Below, one piece after another: positions 2,735 to 22,015 of a stretch of DNA of 64,000 nucleotides. Source of the DNA: Candidatus Poribacteria bacterium (GTDB lineage: Bacteria > Poribacteria > WGA-4E > PCPOR2b); contig OZ244587.1 of the NCBI GenBank assembly GCA_965218095.1, forward strand, positions 3,584,001 through 3,648,000, given 5' to 3'. Numbering within the stretch: the first letter of the stretch is position 1; each line of letters begins with the position of its first letter. The notes beneath the pieces were generated by a model. The model was not told the origin of the DNA. It saw only the letters and a list, made by a program, of their open reading frames with translations, and searched no databases. The position numbers and the translations under genes were made by a program.

Positions 2735-4099
2735 TTAGATTAACCCATCTGCCTTCATCCATTCAATCGTCTGATCAAACGCAGCAATCGTCTGCTGTAC
2801 GTCTGCCTCGGTATGGGCTGTCATTGTCATGCCACCATTTCCGGCGATATCGATCCCGTTAAGTAGCAACCCACACCGTAGATTCTTGGTTAGCTCTGGG
2901 TTACCACCGCCTTTCAACTGGCGATAGTCCCAATCGTAAGGATTGAAATCAGCAGCGCGCAGCCCGTGGACGTCATGCCCGATAAGGAACTTCACTCCAG
3001 AGAACTCGCCGTAGACTGCCCAATCGAGACCGTGCTGATCAAATACCTCGATCAGTCCATTCCGCAGTATCGTTGCGGTGTGATTGACCTGCTCGTGGGG
3101 AACGCCGGTTTTGACGATTTTAAGCATTGAAATTCCAGCGGCGGCACATAGCGGATTGGCGTTGAATGTTCCTGGATGGGGCATCTTTTTTCTGCGTTGG
3201 GGATAACTCATTTCCTCTTTGATAGAGATGAGATCCAAGATCTCCTTTTTCCCGGCAACTGCGCCGCCGGGCAGACCACCTGCCAAAATTTTGGCAAGTG
3301 TCGTCAGATCTGGCGTGACCTGATAATACCCCTGTGCTCCGCTAGGCGCAACTCGAAAACCGGAGATTACCTCGTCAAAGATCAGTACGACACTGTAGGC
3401 TTGCGTAACCTCTCGCAACTGTCGGAGGAATTCACCGTTTGTCGGAATGATACCGAAGGAACTGCCTGTTGGCTCCAAGATAACGCATGCAATGTCCGAA
3501 TCTGATTTCAGACACTTTTCAACCGCGTCAATGTCGTTTGGTGGACAGATTACCGTCGTGTCAATGACGCTCTCTGGAATCCCCGGCACAGGCGCCTCAA
3601 GAGGTGGGTTCACACCCAAGATCACGGAATCGTGCCAGCCGTGAAAATGTCCCGCAAATTTCAGGAGCTTGTTTTTTCCCGCATAGGTCCGCGCCAGCCG
3701 AATCGCCATCAAGGTTGCTTCCGTTCCTGAACTGACAAATCGCACACGTTCCGCTGAGGGAATCAGCTCTTTCACCAGGCCTCCCCACTCCAGTTCAAGC
3801 GGATGGCAGGCGCCGTAGTGCGTACCATACGGCATCTGCTGCGTGACAGCTTCAACGATTTCAGGGGGGCTGTGCCCGAGCAGAAGTGCGCCGTGCCCCG
3901 ACCAGTAATCGATAAATTCTTTGCCATCAACTCCCCACTTTTTCGACCCTTGTGCGCGATCAATGTAAATTGGAAACGGTTCTGCATGCCGGTTATCATG
4001 TGTCACACCATCGGGAAAAATATAGTTCGCCCGCTGTGCAAGTTCTCCATCTGTTGAAAAAGTCTTTTGATACCGTTCCAGAATTGTGTGATTTGACAT
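2735..4099 (-). CDS. Class III aminotransferase (glutamate-1-semialdehyde aminomutase-like)
   Basis: SGTEAT, FHGWHD, LIFDEVISGFR, LAKILAGGLP (PLP lysine), GTFNANP; GGAG RBS. Confidence 0.9.
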   Translation of the reverse strand: MSNHTILERYQKTFSTDGELAQRANYIFPDGVTHDNRHAEPFPIYIDRAQGSKKWGVDGKEFIDYWSGHGALLLGHSPPEIVEAVTQQMPYGTHYGACHPLELEWGGLVKELIPSAERVRFVSSGTEATLMAIRLARTYAGKNKLLKFAGHFHGWHDSVILGVNPPLEAPVPGIPESVIDTTVICPPNDIDAVEKCLKSDSDIACVILEPTGSSFGIIPTNGEFLRQLREVTQAYSVVLIFDEVISGFRVAPSGAQGYYQVTPDLTTLAKILAGGLPGGAVAGKKEILDLISIKEEMSYPQRRKKMPHPGTFNANPLCAAAGISMLKIVKTGVPHEQVNHTATILRNGLIEVFDQHGLDWAVYGEFSGVKFLIGHDVHGLRAADFNPYDWDYRQLKGGGNPELTKNLRCGLLLNGIDIAGNGGMTMTAHTEADVQQTIAAFDQTIEWMKADGLI

Positions 4100-14692: not shown

Positions 14693-15042
14693 ATATGAAC
14701 CGGATTCCGTCGCGCCCAATGGTTCAGGAACAGAAGGGATCGAAAGAACCAGAAGAATCTAACATTGCCGAGGTCACGTCATTAGTTTTCTTAGTATAGC
14801 ACACCTCCATTTTTAATTCAAACACAAAATTAACCCGGCAGCCGGATGAACTTTGTGGTGGGTAAAACTTGTTTTGCGAAAATGCCTTGCGAAACACGTT
14901 CTGCACACTAAAAATGGACTGCATCTTTACCGTCTACAACCCTTACAACCATTACATCAAAGCCTTATAGGAAAACCAATCTTTCAAAGATTCCTCTCGT
15001 ACATTGCGGCGTGAGTTGTTGACCTTTGTTTGCTGTTGTGTA

Positions 15043-15867
15043 CTAGGTTAGCTTTTGCATTGTCTTCTCATAACGCTTCTCCATCTCCGGCCCCTGATAT
15101 TGCAAGTATTCCTGCTCGGCGTGACGTGCTGCCTTTTGCGAGGGAGGTTCGGGGATGTCAATGACGGCGGTGGTGATCTGGTCGTTGCCCCACTTGTAAG
15201 CGACGATTTCTCCCTTGCTGATGATGAGGTTCATACCGACATTTGCCTCGACAATCGCCACACCATTTTCCCGGGCCCGCGCAAGTACGGCCCCGTTCTG
15301 GCCCTTGCGCTTAGAACCGTAGGATGGAATGAGAATTAAGCGTGCCCCATCCAGCACAAGCGTGCGAGTAATCAACGGATTCCAGCGATCGTTGCAGATG
15401 ACAGCGCCGGTACGACCCACTGGGGTATCAAAAGCGCGTAACGTTTCGCCAATGCGGTTAAAGTTCCAGGATGGATGGGCACCTTCAGCGAGTTGGGTCT
15501 TGTGATATTTGCCACAGATCTCGCCGTTGTGGTCGATAAACACAGCACAGTTGTAAGTCTCGTCCGCGATACGCTCGGCAAAGCCAAAACAGAGACAAGT
15601 CCCCAGTGTCCTGGCAAGGTGCTGGAAGCGTCGGATGTAGAGGCCATCAATCGGTTCGGCGATTTCGAGCATATCCTCTGCCGTTGCCCGATTTTCGATG
15701 ACATCCATGACAACGTAGCCTTCCAGCACGCCTTCCGTGGTTAGAATGACCTGCGGCCGCTCTTTGGCAGCCGCAACAAAGAATGCCTCCATCTTGTCGG
15801 CATTTGCGGCTTTATCCCACTTCGTCGGTTTGAGCGAAACGGCTGCGACCTTGACTGAGTTGTACAT
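15043..15867 (-). CDS. Carbon-nitrogen hydrolase (nitrilase superfamily)
   Basis: E-K-C triad: TTEG, YHKTQL, ICNDRW. Confidence 0.9.
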   Translation of the reverse strand: MYNSVKVAAVSLKPTKWDKAANADKMEAFFVAAAKERPQVILTTEGVLEGYVVMDVIENRATAEDMLEIAEPIDGLYIRRFQHLARTLGTCLCFGFAERIADETYNCAVFIDHNGEICGKYHKTQLAEGAHPSWNFNRIGETLRAFDTPVGRTGAVICNDRWNPLITRTLVLDGARLILIPSYGSKRKGQNGAVLARARENGVAIVEANVGMNLIISKGEIVAYKWGNDQITTAVIDIPEPPSQKAARHAEQEYLQYQGPEMEKRYEKTMQKLT

Positions 15868-15963
15868 GATTCACCTCATTTCCAAAAAATACACCCTTCG
15901 ATTGGATTCAGGTTAAGCGGATTGTTTCCCGATTGACAATTTCCTTGCTTTCCGTATGATTGT

Positions 15964-16914
15964 CTACTGAAAGGGCCATGTGCCCGGGTTGAGTTGGTCC
16001 GGACTTACCCCAATCTCCCGAATGCAACTCAGGAGGGTTGGGGGAAGCGTCTCTCGCTTTGCAAACGACAGGACTTCTTCCAATTCATGCAGCCGACCGG
16101 TTCCCACCAGTGCTGTAGAAACAGCAGGGTGGGCGAGCACGAAGCGGTAAGCCAATTCCGGCAACCTGTTGCCTTCTGAACTCAGCAGCGTGTTCAATTG
16201 TTGGACAGCCTCCCTCAGTTCACGGAGCTCTTCGGGAAGATGTGCATAACGATAGGTCAACGCACCTTTCAGCAGAACGGATCGGATAACAACCCCCACA
16301 TCTTTTTCTCGCGCAAGCGGTAGTACGCGTGCTTCAAACTGGCGGTCTAACAGATTGCAGGCGATTTGCAGGAAGTCGAAGCGGTCATCTTCCAACGCAG
16401 CTAGTGGCGCCGCTCTGCCATAGGTTGTCGCGCCAATAAAACGGGCTTGACCGGATCGTTGCGCGTCTTGCATGATTTCCATTACCTCGCCCTGCCGAAT
16501 GAGCTCAGGAGAGGCGTTGTGGATGTAGAGGAGGTCAATGACCTCTGTCTGTAGCGCCTGCAGGCTTTCGGTAATCGACGCTTCGACCTGCTGCCGGAGT
16601 TCCTCACCGGTATACCCATCCCAACTTAAATGAGGAACTTTCGTCGCAAGGATGTATTCGTCCCGACGTGATTTCAGCACCCGCCCAATAACGGCTTCAC
16701 TCTCTCCATAAGCCCGCGCTGTATCGATCAGATTAACGCCCCGATCGAGCGCGCCGTGAAGCACATAGGCAGCTTCTGCCTCGGACGGACGCCGTTTCTC
16801 CCCTTTCACAGGAATACCATAGTCAATTCCAATCTCTACCGTGCCAAGCGAAACCTCCGACACTTGCAGATTGGTCCGGCCCAGACGCCGATAGTTCATG
16901 GAGTCAGTTGTCAT
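15964..16914 (-). CDS. Aldo/keto reductase
   Basis: YRRLGRTNLQVSEVSLG, IDTARAYG.SE, LATK, DLLYIH; start set at ATG 16914. Confidence 0.9.
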   Translation of the reverse strand: MTTDSMNYRRLGRTNLQVSEVSLGTVEIGIDYGIPVKGEKRRPSEAEAAYVLHGALDRGVNLIDTARAYGESEAVIGRVLKSRRDEYILATKVPHLSWDGYTGEELRQQVEASITESLQALQTEVIDLLYIHNASPELIRQGEVMEIMQDAQRSGQARFIGATTYGRAAPLAALEDDRFDFLQIACNLLDRQFEARVLPLAREKDVGVVIRSVLLKGALTYRYAHLPEELRELREAVQQLNTLLSSEGNRLPELAYRFVLAHPAVSTALVGTGRLHELEEVLSFAKRETLPPTLLSCIREIGVSPDQLNPGTWPFQ

Positions 16915-16949
16915 TTCTCGATGCCTTCCCCCGCGAACAAAGTTGGGGC

Positions 16950-17301
16950 AATCAGCCAAACTGAAGCCCCGATTGTTGCTGCCGCCGGGGCGCGAGTCAG
17001 CGTTTTCTGCTTCTCCTTCCTACCGCACCTGCTCCTAGAGTTCCTTTTTGTCGCCATCTGTTGGCTTGAGCAGCATTTCCTGATTTCCGGCTTGCCCTTG
17101 AATGTAGTATCCATACTCTGCATACGAACCATCGTCCCACATCAGATTTGTCGTTGCCCACGCTCCATCGTCCCCGCTCTCCAGTACCTGCACCGGTGTC
17201 GCCGCTGCCTGCATCGGAACTGAACACGAGCCGACTCCCCGAACTAGAGATCCCGTCGAGCCGGACTGAACCATGTATCCGCTTGATTTGTGGGATTTCA
17301 A
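16950..17301 (-). pseudogene. Degraded fragment of unknown protein
   Basis: Protein-like frame ...LMWDDGSYAEYGYYIQ...KKEL*EQVR*EGE with two in-frame TAGs; no clear start. Confidence 0.35.
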
Positions 17302-18137
17302 CGAAAATCACTTTATTCCCTCGGATACGCAATTGCTGCAGATGGATATATCGCCACCTTGGGCTTCTGGTCACGATATATCTGCTTCAAGAAATCAAGA
17401 ATTTCATCCCACGATTCCATCAATTTGGCTCTGGGTTGAGCCTCTAAGACTTCCATCGGCCCGACAGCTTGAGAGAAGAGAATAGTGCGCCCATGCGTAT
17501 CAAGATGCGATGTCGGCTAGATTCCGACTCGGTGAACTTACCGCCGCATACCTAACTCTAACTGCGCTGCTGGAAACGGCAGGGTTGGAAGCAAGAGGAA
17601 AGGGCAAATGACTCAAAGGGAATGTAGACCCTTCAGGCTGTCATGTCAGGTAAGAGCAATATGACGAAAGCGAAAGTTGAACTGATAGTTGAAGCCTCGT
17701 AAACTCTGAACAGGTTAATCTACAAGTAGAAGGCTTGAGAGACCTTCCAATAATCAGCCTGTAGCTAATAAAGCGTGAGCCAAGATACTCTATTCTGCTA
17801 TTAGAGTATTGAAGGGCAATATATTTATTCTTTATATTGTCTTGTAAGTCGGAAGGCTTCGGGGTAAAGTCAGCGTCTAAGTTGCTCATGAAACGCACCT
17901 TGAGAGAGTGTGGGAGTCCCTAAACCGTCTGAAATGAGAGGTTTTCAGACGGCAAGGGAGAGGAGACTGTATAAGGTCTCAAATAGAGGGTGCATATCCT
18001 TCTTTTAATCTGGCAGACCGAATAACCCCATTATTCAACTTGCCACAAGAAAGGAGGTGCAAATTCCATCTCACCGAAAGGAGGAAGTGCCATGCAATTT
18101 ATTTGCATGTTATCACCCGCAAAGGAGGTGAATGCTA

Positions 18138-18263
18138 ATGATAATCCCCTGGTCTGACTACCAGGAATATCTTGCCTATATCTGCTTTAAGCGCGCTATG
18201 GGTAGAAAGTTCGATACTTTCGAGGAATATCACGCTAAGAGACAGAAAGAGCAGATAAGATAG
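18138..18263 (+). CDS. 41-aa small protein inside intron domain IV
   Basis: Perfect AAAGGAGGTGA RBS then ATG: MIIPWSDYQEYLAYICFKRAMGRKFDTFEEYHAKRQKEQIR. Confidence 0.55.
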   Translation: MIIPWSDYQEYLAYICFKRAMGRKFDTFEEYHAKRQKEQIR

Positions 18264-18573
18264 CCTCTCATCTATATGCCATTTTACACTTGGCTCTATT
18301 TGGAAGTCAAGTGTAAAGTGGCATAGAGACTTAAGCACAGTCAGGTTTATCGCTAAGAAATCGACGTAAAATCCATTAAGGGTGTCTGGCGCAAATCGTG
18401 TTCAATCACGGCGTTCAGCCCCCAACGTTGGACAGCGAAGAAAGTAATAGTGGTTGCAAGTGATTAAAGATTCAGATGCAGTAAATTGGGGTGGCGTACG
18501 GTCAAGGCAACCTAAAGCCGACACACCATAACCTCCGATTGACTGACCATGAATCTATAAGTATTGGTTTTAG

Positions 18574-18777
18574 TCAAGGCTTGGTAAAACTTTTCATAAC
18601 CCAAAGTACCGAACCTGCAAGGATAAAGCCGATAAAAATGCCGAAGGAAACGATAACCAGAAAATCCCTTAATGGTTTTTCTGAATTTCCGGCAACAACA
18701 ATCCCTAAGAAGACAGTAATGAAGGCGAAAGTCACAAATACTGCCCTAAATACTCCTTCCTGAACGGGAGAGTTCAA
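18574..18777 (-). CDS. 67-aa two-TM membrane peptide inside intron domain IV
   Basis: Two long hydrophobic stretches; AAAGGA RBS before TTG start. Confidence 0.55.
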   Translation of the reverse strand: MNSPVQEGVFRAVFVTFAFITVFLGIVVAGNSEKPLRDFLVIVSFGIFIGFILAGSVLWVMKSFTKP

Positions 18778-20124
18778 GAAATCACATCCTTTTTGATCGT
18801 AGTACGATTATCTAGGGGGGAAGGTTTCACTTACAATCACTGATAAACTGGAAAGCCGTGTGCGGTGAAAGTCGCACGCACGGTTTGGAAGGGGGGAAAG
18901 ACTTGCGAAAGTCCTACCTATCCTTACTAATCCCAATCCGTTGATCTGACCAGCGGCTTCCTTTCCTCGTGTTCTCGGTTTTCCTCCTCGCGACGCTGCT
19001 TGGTGTGGATAATCCCGAACCGATGGTAGCACACGCCCTCATCCCCAGAAGAAATCAGGACGCGTGTCGCTTCGGGTTGGGAGTGCCGAAGTGGCCAGGT
19101 GCCGATGGCGCCGTAGCTGAGGTCATGATCACGAGGATAGCCAGTAGAAATGACAATATCCGCATCCGGCATCGGTTCAATCGCATAAGCATCTCTGGCG
19201 ATTTCAGACGCGGCACGATGGGCATCCACAACATCACCAACGGAAAGCTCAGTAATCTGCCGCCTGTCGTTGAGGGTGGTCAGCACGGTCGCATTCAACC
19301 CTAACATTCGGGCGGCCTCTTCGGAGTTGAGCCGGAATTCATTCTCGACATTCCCTACATTCCCGCCACCCTCTAATATACCGTGCGCGGCGCTGATGGT
19401 CGTAAAACTCGCCACGCCGGGGATGATAATCTTCCCACCGCCGCTGAAAGCTGCGGTGCCGTGCGGCCATGCCCCGCCGATACCAATTTTTAACTCACAA
19501 TCTACTACCCATTGGTTGACATGAACTGGAATCCCACGCAAGGTTTTCCCCAGACAGACAAATGAATCATCCAACTCGTTTTGTTTGACGCGAATACGAC
19601 GTACCGTGTCCTCGCCGAGCTTCTTCACGAGATCAGCATGTCGCATCTGTCTGTGGCAGCCGAAGCCCATGAAGATTAAGATGTTCTCTTCGGGGATACC
19701 TCCTTCCTGGAGTTCCTCTAAGATGAAGGAGATGACTTCCGAGGCGGGGATAGGACGGGTTAAGTCGTCGCAAATGATGACGGCGCTTTTTTTCCCCTGC
19801 GCCATCTCCGCGATTCGCGGCGAACCAATTGGCTGTTGAAACGCCTGTCGCATCTGATTTTCGGTCAACACCGGACGGTCTTCAAACGCGATGAGATTGA
19901 GCTCCCAATCATCGGGAAAAGTCAAATTAACTTCTTTGTCGCCATACTAGGCGGCTGTCAAAACTTGAACGGATTGCATTCGTATCTCCTATTTGGAATT
20001 AATAAATCTGTAAACGAAACTTCTCTCCTCCTTATATATTGCCTCTGTTGATGTTCCAACAATTCGCATTGCACCAGATTTGACAGTCAAAGGGATTTTC
20101 CGCTATGGCTTCCAGATCTAAAGG

Positions 20125-20212
20125 TTACTAAAGGATCTGATCCCCCGATCCTTCGGGATCTCGCTTCGCTAGAGACTTGCGAAGGTTTGAAACCTTCGCA
20201 AGGTTTTAGTAG
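20125..20212. repeat. Composite palindromic element
   Basis: Short IR gttactaaa/tttagtagc enclosing a cccgatccttcggg hairpin and cttgcgaaggtttgaaaccttcgcaag. Confidence 0.55.
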
Positions 20213-20278
20213 CAGATTGATCGACAATTGGTATGAGATGCCTTCCCTTCACGCATCACGTCTCACGCTTCACTCCCC

Positions 20279-22015
20279 TTACCACCCAATCGCATACGAA
20301 GTCGAGCGCGGATCGGCGCCGCCCACACGGGTACCGGTCTCCGGATCGACCGTGATTGCGCACACGCAACTGACCGAACCCCAATCCTGATTATCGTGGA
20401 CGATATGCCCTCGATTTCTGAGGAATTCTCGCACCTGTGGGTCAACACGGGCTTCAACCGTTACCTCTCCGGGTTGAATGCCGTGGGGCCAGAACGAGTT
20501 GGGAAAACTGTGTGTGACGGCGCGGGGCGCTTCGATTGCCTCCTGTGGCTCCATCCCAAATTCAACTATGTTGAGGAACACTTGCAGCATCCCCTGAACC
20601 TGCGCGTCACCGCCAGGGCATCCAATCGGCATAAACGGCTTTCCATCTTTGAGGACCATCGCGGGGTTCGGCGTGAGTCGCGGACGCTTCCACGGCTGAA
20701 GGCAGCAGGGGTGCTCCGGATCGAGCCACGTCTGCGTGCCACGCGACGAGATTGGAAAGCCTAAGCCCGGAACGATTGGCGTCCCCCCAACTCCATCTGA
20801 TGGTGTCGCTGAAAAGGCATTACCCGCTTCATCAACCACGCAGAGATAGCTGGTATCCGTTTCCCATTCCGAGATGTGTTCTGGTTGGGAACGATTCGGA
20901 TCTAAGGTTGGGAATGGCCCATTTTCCCGACGCGATTCGGGATGGAATAGCCATGGATTTCCCGGCAGTGGCATGTCGGGGGCAGCGTGCTGTGGATTGA
21001 TTGCTCCCCGTCTTTCGGCGGCGTATCTGCCATCCAGCAATCCCACCATCGGTACCTGCACAAAATCGGGGTCGCCGAAGTAGGCGTGCCGGTCAGCGAA
21101 AGCCAGCTTGAGTCCTTCAATGACCGCGTGGAGATAGTCTGCGGAGTTATGTCCTATCCCTTTCAGATCAATCCCTTCGAGGATCTTCAGCGCCATGTTT
21201 AGCGTGGGACCTTGACACCAAGGACCACAAGTGTAAACATCATAGCCTTTGTAGGTAATGTGCTCCGGCGGCTCGACGCGAACCGAAGACGCCGCGAGAT
21301 CATCGTAGGTCAGCAAGCCACCTTCCTTCCGATAGAAGTCAGCGATTTCGTGGGCGATTTCACCCTTATAGATCAAGTCGCGTGCGGCCTGGATACGTGC
21401 ACGCCTGTCTTCCCTAGCGCTGCGCTCGGCGTCGATCATCCGTTTGAAGGTGTTCGCCAGATCCTTTTGGACAAAGAGCTCCCCAATCTGCGGAACCTGT
21501 CCACCGGGGTTGTACACTTTGGCGGTCGATGGCCAATTTCCGACACCCTCTCCACTCACAACGGAATGGAATTCGGCATCCACTGGACGACCATTTTCGA
21601 CGAGGTCTAACGCGGGCTGAATCACCTGTTCAAAGGTCATTGTACCGAATCGCGCCAGCGCCGTCAGCCACGCATCAGGGGCAGCAGGAGTGACCGTGCG
21701 CAAGATTCCATCGGGCAGATCGCCGCCGTGATGTTCGTGAAAGTAGTCCATGCTTGCGGCTTGGGGCCAACGGCCCAGTCCGCTAATCGTTTCGACGGGG
21801 TCGCCCGACGCTGGACAGTAAATAATCGGCGCGACGCCTCCAAAGTGGGCTGAACCGGGTTGAAGGATGTTGATACAGATTCCTGTTGCCACACCTGCAT
21901 CGGCGGCGTTGCCTCCACTTTCGAGGATGCGAACCCCCGCCATCGTGGCAAGATAATGGAGCGACGATACAAGATAACGCTTTCCTCGTACTGAGGGGCG
22001 ATGACTCTGTGGCAT
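20279..22015 (-). CDS. Gamma-glutamyltransferase family protein
   Basis: GGNAADA, LAFADR..YFGDP, DTSYLCVVD (autocleavage Thr), PGGD.Q, GADPR. Confidence 0.93.
   Translation of the reverse strand: MPQSHRPSVRGKRYLVSSLHYLATMAGVRILESGGNAADAGVATGICINILQPGSAHFGGVAPIIYCPASGDPVETISGLGRWPQAASMDYFHEHHGGDLPDGILRTVTPAAPDAWLTALARFGTMTFEQVIQPALDLVENGRPVDAEFHSVVSGEGVGNWPSTAKVYNPGGQVPQIGELFVQKDLANTFKRMIDAERSAREDRRARIQAARDLIYKGEIAHEIADFYRKEGGLLTYDDLAASSVRVEPPEHITYKGYDVYTCGPWCQGPTLNMALKILEGIDLKGIGHNSADYLHAVIEGLKLAFADRHAYFGDPDFVQVPMVGLLDGRYAAERRGAINPQHAAPDMPLPGNPWLFHPESRRENGPFPTLDPNRSQPEHISEWETDTSYLCVVDEAGNAFSATPSDGVGGTPIVPGLGFPISSRGTQTWLDPEHPCCLQPWKRPRLTPNPAMVLKDGKPFMPIGCPGGDAQVQGMLQVFLNIVEFGMEPQEAIEAPRAVTHSFPNSFWPHGIQPGEVTVEARVDPQVREFLRNRGHIVHDNQDWGSVSCVCAITVDPETGTRVGGADPRSTSYAIGW

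What the first reader, a model, noticed from the sequence alone, without database searches (positions are those of the whole stretch)
17485..18927. RT-less group II intron sitting antisense in a larA-family gene, with exact frame restoration
Seen: the + strand has a GTGCG 5' end, a canonical domain V and a domain VI ending in AC. Deleting 17485-18927 joins GAT-TGG-GAT-TA to T-ATT-CTC on the - strand, giving ...STDWDYILFSQ...VAIYPSAAIAYPRE*, with no target duplication. No RT or maturase ORF fits in the roughly 850-nt domain IV. Known: bacterial group II introns usually encode their own RT, and an antisense insertion cannot be spliced from the host mRNA. Inference: a non-autonomous intron mobilised in trans knocked out larA, which also carries a nonsense codon at 19948.
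Basis: partly seen in the sequence, partly recalled or inferred. Interest (0 to 1): 0.82.

Follow-up and report, generated by a model that had tools for sequence, protein, structure and literature searches.

The report
RT-less group II intron breaking larA
A self-splicing "group II" intron that has lost its own reverse transcriptase sits backwards inside a lactate-racemase-family gene that is also broken by a stop codon; it is an ordinary but well-preserved example of a known kind of mobile element.

Summary
Window 17485-18927 (+) is a 1443-nt group II intron: GTGCG start, Rfam domain V/VI hit of 69.8 bits, bulged branch A, AC end. It lies antisense in a Lar_N (LarA-family) gene. Removing it restores ...RSTDWD|YILFSQAVGP...AIAYPRE*, which matches intact homologues residue for residue. 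A separate TGG->TAG nonsense codon sits at 19949-19947.

The intron has no RT or maturase. It is one of 13 full copies of one IIB1-like family in this 6.35-Mb genome. The only intron RT in the genome is itself broken, so trans-mobilisation is historical and the copy now looks stranded.

The larA site pairs with an EBS1 loop (8 bp) and weakly with EBS2 (4 bp), which fits reverse-splicing insertion. Contigs from two other studies carry the 3' junction and the nonsense codon, so neither is an assembly artefact. Which lesion came first cannot be told.

Domain IV is not empty. It holds a conserved 41-43-aa helical-hairpin ORF with four short homologues elsewhere; its function is unknown. A 99%-identical sibling copy occupies a different site that pairs with a different hairpin loop.

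Verdict: a new member of a known kind, of moderate interest.

The parts
17485..18927 (+). ORF-less (RT-less) group II intron, 1443 nt, IIB1-like
   Evidence: GTGCG 5' end and AC 3' end. Rfam RF00029 at 69.8 bits on 18851-18927 and D1-D4-7 at 31.1 bits on 17528-17671. A sibling copy about 99% identical in the ribozyme parts lies at G000:C1:4514987-4516393.
17701..17709 (+). EBS2 loop (AAACTCTGA). CUCU at 17704-17707 can pair with exon AGAG at 17472-17475 (positions -13..-10).
   Evidence: In 10 of 13 family copies this loop pairs 5 bp or more with exon -14/-13..-10/-9. The window copy pairs only 4 bp, and a random exon reaches that 18% of the time. The IBS2 position agrees with the IIB1 rule described in PMC8643678, section 10.
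17729..17747 (+). Hairpin next to the EBS2 loop. Its loop GCTTGAGAGA (17733-17742) is identical, not complementary, to exon 17467-17476. Unexplained.
   Evidence: Read. Three of the four D1 differences from the sibling fall in this hairpin, at 17728, 17733 and 17737.
17784..17810 (+). Exon-binding hairpin 1 (loop TTCTGCTAT). It is unused at the larA site but pairs 8 bp with the sibling's 5' exon.
   Evidence: CTGCTATT pairs with AGTAGCAG at -8..-1 of the sibling's exon.
17814..17842 (+). Exon-binding hairpin 2 (loop TTTATTCTT). EBS1 for the larA site is TATTCTTT at 17826-17833.
   Evidence: It pairs 8 bp (1 G-U) with exon AGAGAATA at 17477-17484, ending exactly at -1. Random genomic exons reach this score against the 75-nt region in 1.3% of 20000 trials. 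The closest relative, L043, pairs the same loop type (TTATTCT) with its exon AGAATAA.
18060..18845 (+). Domain IV, about 785 nt (limits inferred by eye). No RT or maturase remnant.
   Evidence: No PF00078 or PF08388 hit here. tblastn with the family RT gives a best E of 0.013, on the wrong strand, in a two-sequence database. The sibling is unalignable over 18520-18800.
18132..18263 (+). Conserved small ORF, 43 aa from the ATG at 18132. It more likely starts at the ATG at 18138 (41 aa). It is preceded by GGAGG at 18124-18128.
   Evidence: The sibling keeps it open at 51 aa, with 6 synonymous and 5 non-synonymous changes in 35 aligned codons. hmmsearch of 1.84 billion representatives found 4 short homologues of 35-46 aa, best E 2.7e-15. 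AlphaFold gives pLDDT 85 and two helices. No Pfam, NCBIfam, PHROG or PDB-fold match.
18277..18330 (+). Long hairpin just after the small ORF (core TACACTTGG...CAAGTGTA).
   Evidence: MFE fold of 18040-18340 has z = -6.3. The same core hairpin follows the small ORF homologue in L074.
18574..18777 (-). 67-aa hydrophobic ORF inside domain IV. Probably not a gene.
   Evidence: No family hits and no paralogue in the genome. It is absent from the sibling. A strain variant in run X6 has a 1-nt insertion at 18675 that would shift its frame.
18853..18886 (+). Domain V
   Evidence: Alignment to RF00029 model positions 3-36, all pairs standard.
18889..18927 (+). Domain VI with bulged branch-point A at 18920, and the 3' end AC.
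   Evidence: RF00029 alignment.
17313..17484 (-). 3' fragment of the LarA-family gene: the last base of a split TAT codon, 56 codons and the stop.
   Evidence: Matches the C-terminus of intact homologues...YILFSQAVGP...AIAYPxE.
18928..19979 (-). 5' fragment of the LarA-family gene (ATG at 19979-19977).
   Evidence: Pfam Lar_N PF09861, E 5.1e-45. It is 75-79% identical to intact genes in 19 related genomes.
19947..19949 (-). In-frame TAG where homologues have TGG (W11).
   Evidence: The base is unchanged in contigs of runs X3, X6 and X10 that cover it.

Best explanation
This is a IIB1-like group II intron that has lost its reverse transcriptase/maturase gene.

Inferred steps:
- It entered the DNA strand antisense to a LarA-family gene by reverse splicing. 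It was guided by its EBS1 loop (8 bp with the last 8 exon bases) and weakly by EBS2 (4 bp).
- It was copied into DNA by an RT supplied in trans by a related intron.

Known principle: because the insert is antisense, the larA transcript carries the complement of the ribozyme and cannot splice it out.

Shown steps:
- The reading frame stops 2 codons' worth into the insert, at TAG formed from 18929-18927.
- The gene also has an independent TGG->TAG nonsense codon near its start, so it is a pseudogene.
- Both lesions are shared by strains from different samples.
- The genome has no intact intron RT today.

The copy is therefore most likely a stranded relic. Its domain IV carries a conserved small ORF of unknown role.
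For: Intron identity.

Exact junction and antisense orientation.

Lar_N domain, and intact, uninterrupted orthologues of 411-452 aa open frame in related genomes.

No RT in the insert.

Family context:
- There are 13 full copies in the genome.
- Only copy I03 (G000:C1:598220-600671) has an RT. That RT is split by a TGA and a frameshift.
- Its best solved relative is chain 6me0_C, E 2.2e-57.
- The only other RT in the genome is a Drt4 defence RT.

EBS1-IBS1: the window copy pairs 8 bp. Ten of 13 cognate copies score 6 or more, against about 6% of random exons.

EBS2-IBS2: covariation in 10 of 13 copies.

The sibling is about 99% identical in D1-D3 and D5-D6.

Reality of the lesions:
- X3 record 23 (0 differences) and X6 record 30 (4 differences) bridge 18927/18928.
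- X6 record 25 runs from 17000 to 17514.
- The TAG at 19948 is unchanged in X3, X6 and X10.
- P0001, 98% identical, is an ORF with the same first and last residues.

Decay:
- The window copy and P0001 each carry derived residues at conserved sites.
- Three of 115 invariant columns are broken in both.
Against: - EBS2 pairs only 4 bp at the larA site, which is no better than 18% of random sites. This is a near-cognate or ectopic site, not a clean homing site.
- The D1-D4 covariance model scores just below gathering.
- No intact RT exists in the assembly, so trans-mobilisation is not demonstrable.
- The genome is 93.9% complete by markers.
- No empty-site allele and no ligated-exon joint was seen in the 4 runs laid. 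The insertion therefore cannot be dated or ordered relative to the nonsense codon.
- RNA-library contigs cover intron and exons only at 2-5x, without strand information, and could be DNA carry-over.
- The mosaic divergence of domain IV between siblings implies recombination that this simple story does not explain.
Confidence: 0.88

Rival explanations
1. The intron landed in a gene that was already dead. The TGG->TAG nonsense codon came first, and the intron insertion was neutral rather than the cause of the knock-out.
For: Both lesions are present in every strain sampled (P0001), so the order is open. In this family only 1 of 13 copies interrupts the body of a long ORF. That would fit selection against hits in live genes and tolerance of a hit in a dead one.
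Against: Nothing favours either order. Decay at conserved residues is modest, with 3 of 115 invariant columns broken. That fits recent inactivation by either lesion.
Confidence: 0.45
2. The intron is still mobile. An intact RT is supplied from a replicon or strain not in this assembly, or the RT lesions in copy I03 are assembly errors.
For: - The ribozyme parts of the two siblings differ at only about 5 positions.
- All catalytic landmarks are intact.
- Related genomes hold many identical mini-copies, which suggests recent activity in the lineage.
- Marker completeness is 93.9%.
Against: - I03's RT has two independent lesions, a TGA and a frameshift, not one homopolymer slip.
- There is no other GIIM or RT hit in the single-contig genome except Drt4.
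- The insert is antisense to a block of - strand genes, with no better-than-chance promoter upstream on the + strand.
Confidence: 0.15
3. The insert persists because domain IV carries a working gene. The 41-43-aa protein would be a non-RT intron-borne cargo, with the intron serving as its vehicle.
For: - The ORF is kept open in three variants: window, sibling and the X6 recombinant.
- It shows 6 synonymous against 5 non-synonymous changes.
- A strong GGAGG precedes it.
- Four short homologues exist in a 1.84-billion-protein library.
- All 3 genomic contexts I could see are inside, or within about 60 nt of, introns of this family.
- The fold is confident, at pLDDT 85.
Against: - The counts are tiny.
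- In G007 the ORF lies outside the intron, next to a 5'-truncated copy.
- No function, family or fold match was found.
- The contexts of the four database homologues could not be fetched.
- It was found in only 2 of 151 genomes of the order.
Confidence: 0.3
4. Assembly artefact: the intron was mis-joined into larA by a repeat-induced chimera.
For: The intron is a multi-copy repeat, and short-read contigs break at its ends.
Against: Contigs from two other studies cross the 3' junction with 52-54 intron bases and 744 exon bases. One reaches 30 bases across the 5' junction. An independent 332-aa ORF ends at the same residue.
Confidence: 0.02

Closest known systems
ORF-less IIB1 introns of Thermosynechococcus elongatus (TeI3 family), mobilised by 'driver' RTs of related TeI4 introns (Mohr et al. 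2010, PMC2882425; passages read)
   Same: - A multi-copy family in one genome, with most copies lacking the RT.
- EBS/IBS pairing at insertion sites.
- Few copies inside genes.
- IS elements inside some copies.
- The RT of the family is closest to the solved chain 6me0_C. I recall, from no call, that this chain is the T. elongatus TeI4h RT.
   Different: - Here no intact RT is left in the genome.
- No N- or C-terminal RT remnants flank the deletion in this copy. The TeI3 introns keep such remnants.
- Domain IV instead holds an unrelated conserved small ORF.
- This copy is antisense inside a coding gene.
Non-conditional gene disruption by targetrons inserted in the antisense strand (Enyeart et al. 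2014, PMC3898094; passages read)
   Same: An antisense group II intron yields a host transcript carrying the complement of the ribozyme. That transcript cannot be spliced, so the gene is permanently disrupted.
   Different: This is a natural event, not an engineered one. The host gene carries a second lesion.
IIB1 target recognition rules (EcI5; Monachello et al. 2021, PMC8643678; abstract and section 10 read)
   Same: EBS2 lies in an internal loop of subdomain ID. IBS2 lies about -13..-9, upstream of IBS1.
   Different: - Two tandem 9-nt-loop hairpins follow. Either one supplies the pairing that ends at -1: hairpin 1 in 6 copies and hairpin 2 in 6 copies.
- I did not test EBS2a-IBS2a.
Trichodesmium ORF-less introns in dnaN, spliced by the RT of a related intron (as described in the introduction of PMC12584367; passage read)
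   Same: ORF-less bacterial introns depend on a relative's RT/maturase.
   Different: Those are sense insertions in an essential gene and must splice. This one is antisense in a dispensable paralogue.

Membership tests
Group II intron (Rfam RF00029 and D1-D4 models) | Domain V and domain VI matching the covariance model above gathering | tested here: met
   69.8 bits against a gathering score of 40, model positions 1-77 of 77.
Group II intron (Rfam RF00029 and D1-D4 models) | 5' GUGYG and 3' AY boundaries, with a bulged branch A 7-8 nt from the 3' end | tested here: met
   GTGCG at 17485, AC at 18926-18927, bulged A at 18920 in the model alignment.
Group II intron (Rfam RF00029 and D1-D4 models) | Domain I-IV core matching a D1-D4 covariance model | tested here: inconclusive
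   RF02012 scores 31.1 bits, under its gathering score of 34. D1 is 71-77% identical to 12 other copies that have the same landmarks.
Group II intron (Rfam RF00029 and D1-D4 models) | EBS1-IBS1 pairing ending at the 5' splice site | tested here: met
   8 bp (1 G-U). Reached by 1.3% of random exons.
Group II intron (Rfam RF00029 and D1-D4 models) | EBS2-IBS2 pairing | tested here: inconclusive
   4 bp at -13..-10, reached by 18% of random exons. The loop is validated by covariation in 10 of 13 copies.
Group II intron (Rfam RF00029 and D1-D4 models) | Self-splicing or lariat formation | not testable with these tools
   The contigs laid show no joint from 17484 to 18928 and cannot show lariats.
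Subgroup IIB1 / chloroplast-like class | RT of the lineage groups with IIB1 (CL) intron RTs that have an En domain | tested here: met
   This was tested on relative copy I03 only. Its best PDB hit is 6me0_C at 2.2e-57, far ahead of the other group II intron RT chains listed (7uim, 5g2x, 6ar1), which I recall to be IIC and IIA. An HNH-like tail is present. The window copy has no RT, so its class is inferred from ribozyme similarity.
Trans-mobilised ORF-less intron (TeI3-like system) | No RT/maturase ORF in domain IV | tested here: met
Trans-mobilised ORF-less intron (TeI3-like system) | An intact RT encoded by a related intron in the same cell | tested here: not met
   There is one GIIM hit in the genome, in copy I03. 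Its RT has an in-frame TGA and a frameshift.
Trans-mobilised ORF-less intron (TeI3-like system) | More than one copy at different sites with matching EBS/IBS | tested here: met
   A sibling lies at G000:C1:4514987-4516393, with 8-bp EBS1 and 6-bp EBS2 pairing to its own exon.
LarA family (lactate racemase-like) | Lar_N domain plus the family's C-terminal region | tested here: met
   PF09861 at E 5.1e-45. The full length aligns with 407-aa homologues once the intron is removed.
LarA family (lactate racemase-like) | Catalytic and cofactor-binding residues, and actual substrate | not tested
   Three of 115 columns that are invariant in 12 homologues are altered. I did not map these to active-site residues.

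The most novel reading that the evidence does not exclude
This RT-less IIB1 lineage may be unusual in two ways.

- Domain IV carries its own conserved 35-51-aa helical-hairpin protein instead of an RT. That would be a new kind of intron-borne protein.
- The ribozyme has two interchangeable EBS1 hairpins, so one intron sequence can colonise two unrelated sites. The larA site pairs with hairpin 2, and the 99%-identical sibling's site pairs with hairpin 1. This would give a built-in route to switching targets.
Probability: 0.25. Interest if true: 0.7.

Novelty: new member of a known kind. Interest (0 to 1): 0.42.

Why it matters
It is a clean natural counterpart of an engineered antisense 'targetron' knock-out. 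It also extends proliferating ORF-less IIB1 introns to a sponge-associated, Candidatus Poribacteria-like lineage. My two text searches found no paper that treats group II introns in that group: 2 papers hold both terms, and neither is about this.

The genome is a useful case of a whole intron family left without a working RT. It offers three testable leads:
- a conserved small ORF in domain IV;
- two alternative EBS1 hairpins;
- an EBS2 that reads Shine-Dalgarno sequences.

Tried and rejected
RT remnant in domain IV: rejected. There are no PF00078 or PF08388 hits there, and tblastn gives only noise.

Twintron or second intron inside domain IV: rejected. There is only one RF00029 hit at E up to 1 in 15000-22000.

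The 67-aa hydrophobic ORF (18574-18777, - strand) as cargo or toxin: rejected as unsupported.

The small ORF as an RT N-terminal remnant: rejected. The profile search hit no intron RTs, only 4 short proteins and 2 long repeat proteins.

Function of the small ORF: nothing was found.
- Pfam, NCBIfam and PHROGs gave no usable hit.
- The ESM Atlas best score was 0.78.
- Foldseek against the PDB gave all E above 1.
- Scans of JGI metagenome contigs and viral contigs found no locus.

Promoter for the intron on the + strand: the consensus scan found no more sites than shuffles.

Empty-site or spliced form: no contig in runs X10, X11, X3 or X6 joins 17484 to 18928. Contigs drop rare variants, so this is not evidence of absence. 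The RNA-library cover of the intron is low and unstranded, so I draw no conclusion on expression.

The 10-nt identity between the hairpin loop at 17733-17742 and exon 17467-17476:
- I considered an 'IBS2 mimic' that pairs with EBS2.
- Mini-introns of related genomes show the same same-sense co-variation.
- I could not test it and leave it unexplained.

Literature and sources not seen:
- HYER ribozymes were seen only in a search listing and were not compared.
- Supplements of PMC2882425 (figures S2, S3) and PMC8643678 (tables S1-S3) could not be seen. They may show whether tandem EBS1-type hairpins or Shine-Dalgarno targets are already on record.
Full report
**Observation**

Window 17485-18927 (+ strand) begins GTGCG and ends ...CCTTAC. 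Rfam's Intron_gpII model (domains V and VI) matches 18851-18927 end to end at 69.8 bits (gathering 40; E 1.2e-12). A D1-D4-7 model matches 17528-17671 at 31.1 bits, just under its gathering score of 34. It is the only Rfam family above gathering in the whole 64-kb window. In the model alignment domain V is 18853-18886, with all pairs standard. Domain VI has a bulged A at 18920, seven bases from the 3' end.

**Host gene**

On the - strand, ORF 18927-19925 has a Lar_N domain (PF09861, E 5.1e-45). The best named database homologues are 407-aa 'lactate racemase domain-containing' proteins of Candidatus Poribacteria MAGs.

- Junction: homologues read ...ERKPLVRSxDWDYILFSQAVGP...IYPSAAIAYPxE. The window reads ...RSTDWD up to 18930, then TA|(intron)|T, then ILFSQAVGP...AIAYPRE* from 17483. 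Joining the flanks in a script gives one 396-aa open frame across the junction. There is no duplicated target sequence.
- Nonsense codon: upstream, the true start is ATG 19979-19977. The eleventh codon is TAG (19949-19947) where 13 of 13 aligned homologues have W.
- Relatives: in 19 related genomes the orthologue is uninterrupted, with open frames of 411-452 aa.

**Intron family and RT status**

BLAST of the intron against its own 6.35-Mb single-contig genome finds a sibling at C1:4514987-4516393 and about a dozen more distant relatives. I delimited 13 full copies of 715-2452 nt.

- Only one copy, I03 (598220-600671), has RT and maturase domains. It gives the single GIIM hit in the genome.
- Its RT is interrupted by an in-frame TGA and then a frameshift between RT blocks.
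- Its closest solved relative is chain 6me0_C (E 2.2e-57). I recall, from no call, that this is the Thermosynechococcus TeI4h IIB1 RT.
- The only other RT in the genome is a Drt4 defence enzyme.
- Larger RT-less copies hold IS transposase genes (I04, I09, I13, I14) or an HNH-tail remnant (I05).
- The window copy holds no RT trace.

As assembled (93.9% marker completeness), the family has no working RT.

**How it got into larA**

An alignment of the 13 copies and pairing scans locate the exon-binding sites.

- EBS2: a 9-nt loop at intron positions about 217-225 (window 17701-17709) pairs 5 bp or more with exon -14/-13..-10/-9 in 10 of 13 copies. This is the position given for IBS2 in IIB1 introns (PMC8643678 section 10). 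At the larA site it pairs only 4 bp (CUCU:AGAG), which 18% of random exons also reach.
- EBS1: two tandem hairpins with 9-nt loops follow, at 17784-17810 and 17814-17842. At the larA site the second loop (TATTCTTT, 17826-17833) pairs 8 bp with the last eight exon bases (AGAGAATA, 17477-17484). Random genomic exons reach that score in 1.3% of 20000 trials.
- Closest relative outside this genome: L043 (75% identical in D1) pairs the same kind of loop (TTATTCT) with its exon AGAATAA.
- Across the family: 10 of 13 cognate pairs score 6 or more, against about 6% for random exons.

This fits insertion by reverse splicing at a near-cognate site, followed by reverse transcription in trans. Those two steps are inferred, not shown. 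That an antisense insert cannot be spliced from the host transcript is established knowledge (PMC3898094, passage).

**A puzzle worth noting**

The sibling has the same two hairpins, yet its own 5' exon (AGTAGCAG) pairs 8 bp with the first loop (CTGCTATT), not the second. Over the family the pairing that ends at -1 uses hairpin 1 in 6 copies and hairpin 2 in 6. Either hairpin appears able to act as EBS1. I found no description of this in the passages I read, and I could not see the papers' supplements.

**Domain IV**

Between siblings, D1-D3 and D5-D6 differ at about 5 positions. Domain IV is mosaic: 18128-18275 has many substitutions, and 18520-18800 is unalignable.

- The small ORF: 18132-18263 encodes a 43-aa ORF behind a GGAGG. 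The start is probably the second ATG at 18138, which matches the N-termini of homologues.
- Conservation between siblings: the sibling keeps the ORF open at 51 aa, with 6 synonymous and 5 non-synonymous changes in 35 aligned codons.
- Homologues: a profile search of 1.84 billion representative proteins found four short homologues of 35-46 aa, best E 2.7e-15. They share EY.A.I.F.R..G...T.
- Distribution: six-frame searches found the ORF in 2 of 151 genomes of the order. These are this genome (both siblings) and G007. In G007 it lies just upstream of a 5'-truncated intron of the same family and is followed by the same hairpin.
- Structure and family: AlphaFold predicts two helices at pLDDT 85. 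No family or fold match exists.
- The 67-aa hydrophobic ORF on the - strand is probably spurious.

**Population evidence**

Runs from 5 studies hold the stretch. Four runs recorded as sponge metatranscriptomes hold about a third of its words. I laid 4 of the 16 listed runs.

- X3 record 23 (0 differences) and X6 record 30 (4 differences) bridge the 3' junction.
- X6 record 25 covers 17000-17514. That is 30 intron bases, one short of the tool's bridging rule.
- No contig joins 17484 to 18928.
- The TAG at 19948 is unchanged in the X3, X6 and X10 contigs that cover it.
- X6 carries a variant intron with sibling-like alleles in the small ORF but window-like sequence at 18520-18800. This indicates recombination among copies.

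P0001, a 332-aa ORF 98% identical to the window's, starts and ends at the same residues. The window copy and P0001 each have derived residues at conserved sites, and 3 of 115 invariant columns are broken in both. Both lesions therefore predate the strain divergence, the gene is decaying, and the order of the two lesions cannot be told.

**Comparison with what is known**

The closest system is the ORF-less TeI3 family of T. elongatus, mobilised by RTs of related introns (PMC2882425). The differences here are four:
- no intact RT remains in the genome;
- this copy has no RT remnant;
- domain IV holds an unrelated small ORF;
- the insert is antisense in a coding gene. It is the only one of the 13 copies that interrupts the body of a long ORF.

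It works like a natural non-conditional targetron disruption.

**Verdict**

It is a new member of a known kind, of moderate interest. Three side observations could be more novel: the small ORF, the two EBS1-type hairpins, and EBS2 loops that read Shine-Dalgarno sequences.

**Limits**

- Contigs cannot show strand, splicing or rare alleles.
- The contexts of the four small-ORF homologues could not be fetched.
- Domain limits for D1-D4 were set by eye.

Noticed in passing
G000:C1 copies I01 (267583), I02 (469559, - strand), I03 (598220), I05 (1598536), I06 (2598356), I13 (5526113), I14 (5863431); also L045 and L047: Seven of 13 family copies sit 7-15 nt downstream of an AGGAG-like Shine-Dalgarno motif, in sense orientation. 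In 4 of them (I02, I03, I05, I14) an ATG lies at, or within 4 nt of, the junction. Their EBS2 loops read CCUUU, CCUUA, CCUCC or CUCCU, which resembles the anti-SD sequence. Two introns in related genomes show the same placement (AAGGAGATAATCATG| and TAAGGAGATAGAAT|). This lineage appears to home to translation start sites.
   Followed up: partly
window 17784-17810 and 17814-17842; same region of all G000 copies: There are two tandem hairpins with 9-nt loops, and either can supply the pairing that ends at exon -1 (hairpin 1 in 6 copies, hairpin 2 in 6). The window copy and its 99%-identical sibling use different ones.
   Followed up: partly
G000:C1:598220-600671 (L013, L027): The genome's only group II intron RT/maturase (with an HNH tail) is broken by an in-frame TGA and a frameshift. 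All 13 introns therefore lack a working RT in this assembly.
   Followed up: yes
window 17733-17742 vs 17467-17476; L054-L071: A hairpin loop beside EBS2 is identical in sense (not complementary) to exon -18..-9, GCTTGAGAGA. In mini-introns of related genomes the equivalent loop (ACCTA or ACCCA) co-varies in the same sense with the exon and is complementary to the EBS2 loop. It may be an internal IBS2 mimic; unexplained.
   Followed up: partly
L054-L071 (G014, G017, G022, G023): Related genomes hold many 738-750-nt RT-less mini-introns, some of them identical. Most of the 17 fetched sit at a repeated target of the form TAACCYAAGTTGCTAG|.
   Followed up: partly
G000 copies I04, I09, I13, I14 (707444-709174, 4389514-4391036, 5526113-5528121, 5863431-5865187): Domain IV of four RT-less copies carries long - strand ORFs that look like IS transposase genes (not checked against any family library), so these introns serve as landing pads.
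   Followed up: no
L078:1237-2760 (G000:C1:1094736-1096259): An intact Drt4-type defence reverse transcriptase (NF041749, 505 bits) lies next to a TPR protein.
   Followed up: partly
G000:C1:4514947-4514986 (5' flank of the sibling copy): The flank contains TGAAAGTCGCACG, which resembles the 3' half of a domain V. The sibling may sit inside a relic of another intron.
   Followed up: no
window 18831 and 18128-18275, in run X6 record 28: A strain variant of this intron has a 20-nt tandem duplication after 18831. Its small-ORF alleles match the sibling copy, which indicates recombination between copies.
   Followed up: partly
L033 and other relatives vs window 15964-22015: Most related genomes carry this LarA paralogue as a tandem pair about 250 nt apart. 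This genome has only the single, broken copy, between an aldo/keto-reductase-like ORF and a gamma-glutamyltranspeptidase-like ORF. Those two names come from my reading of the translations, not from a search.
   Followed up: no
L074:4196-4558 (-) and 3123-3746 (-): The degenerate intron in G007 carries a 120-aa ORF with a lipoprotein-like signal and a 207-aa repeat ORF on the opposite strand in domain IV. It also keeps an RT N-terminal remnant.
   Followed up: no
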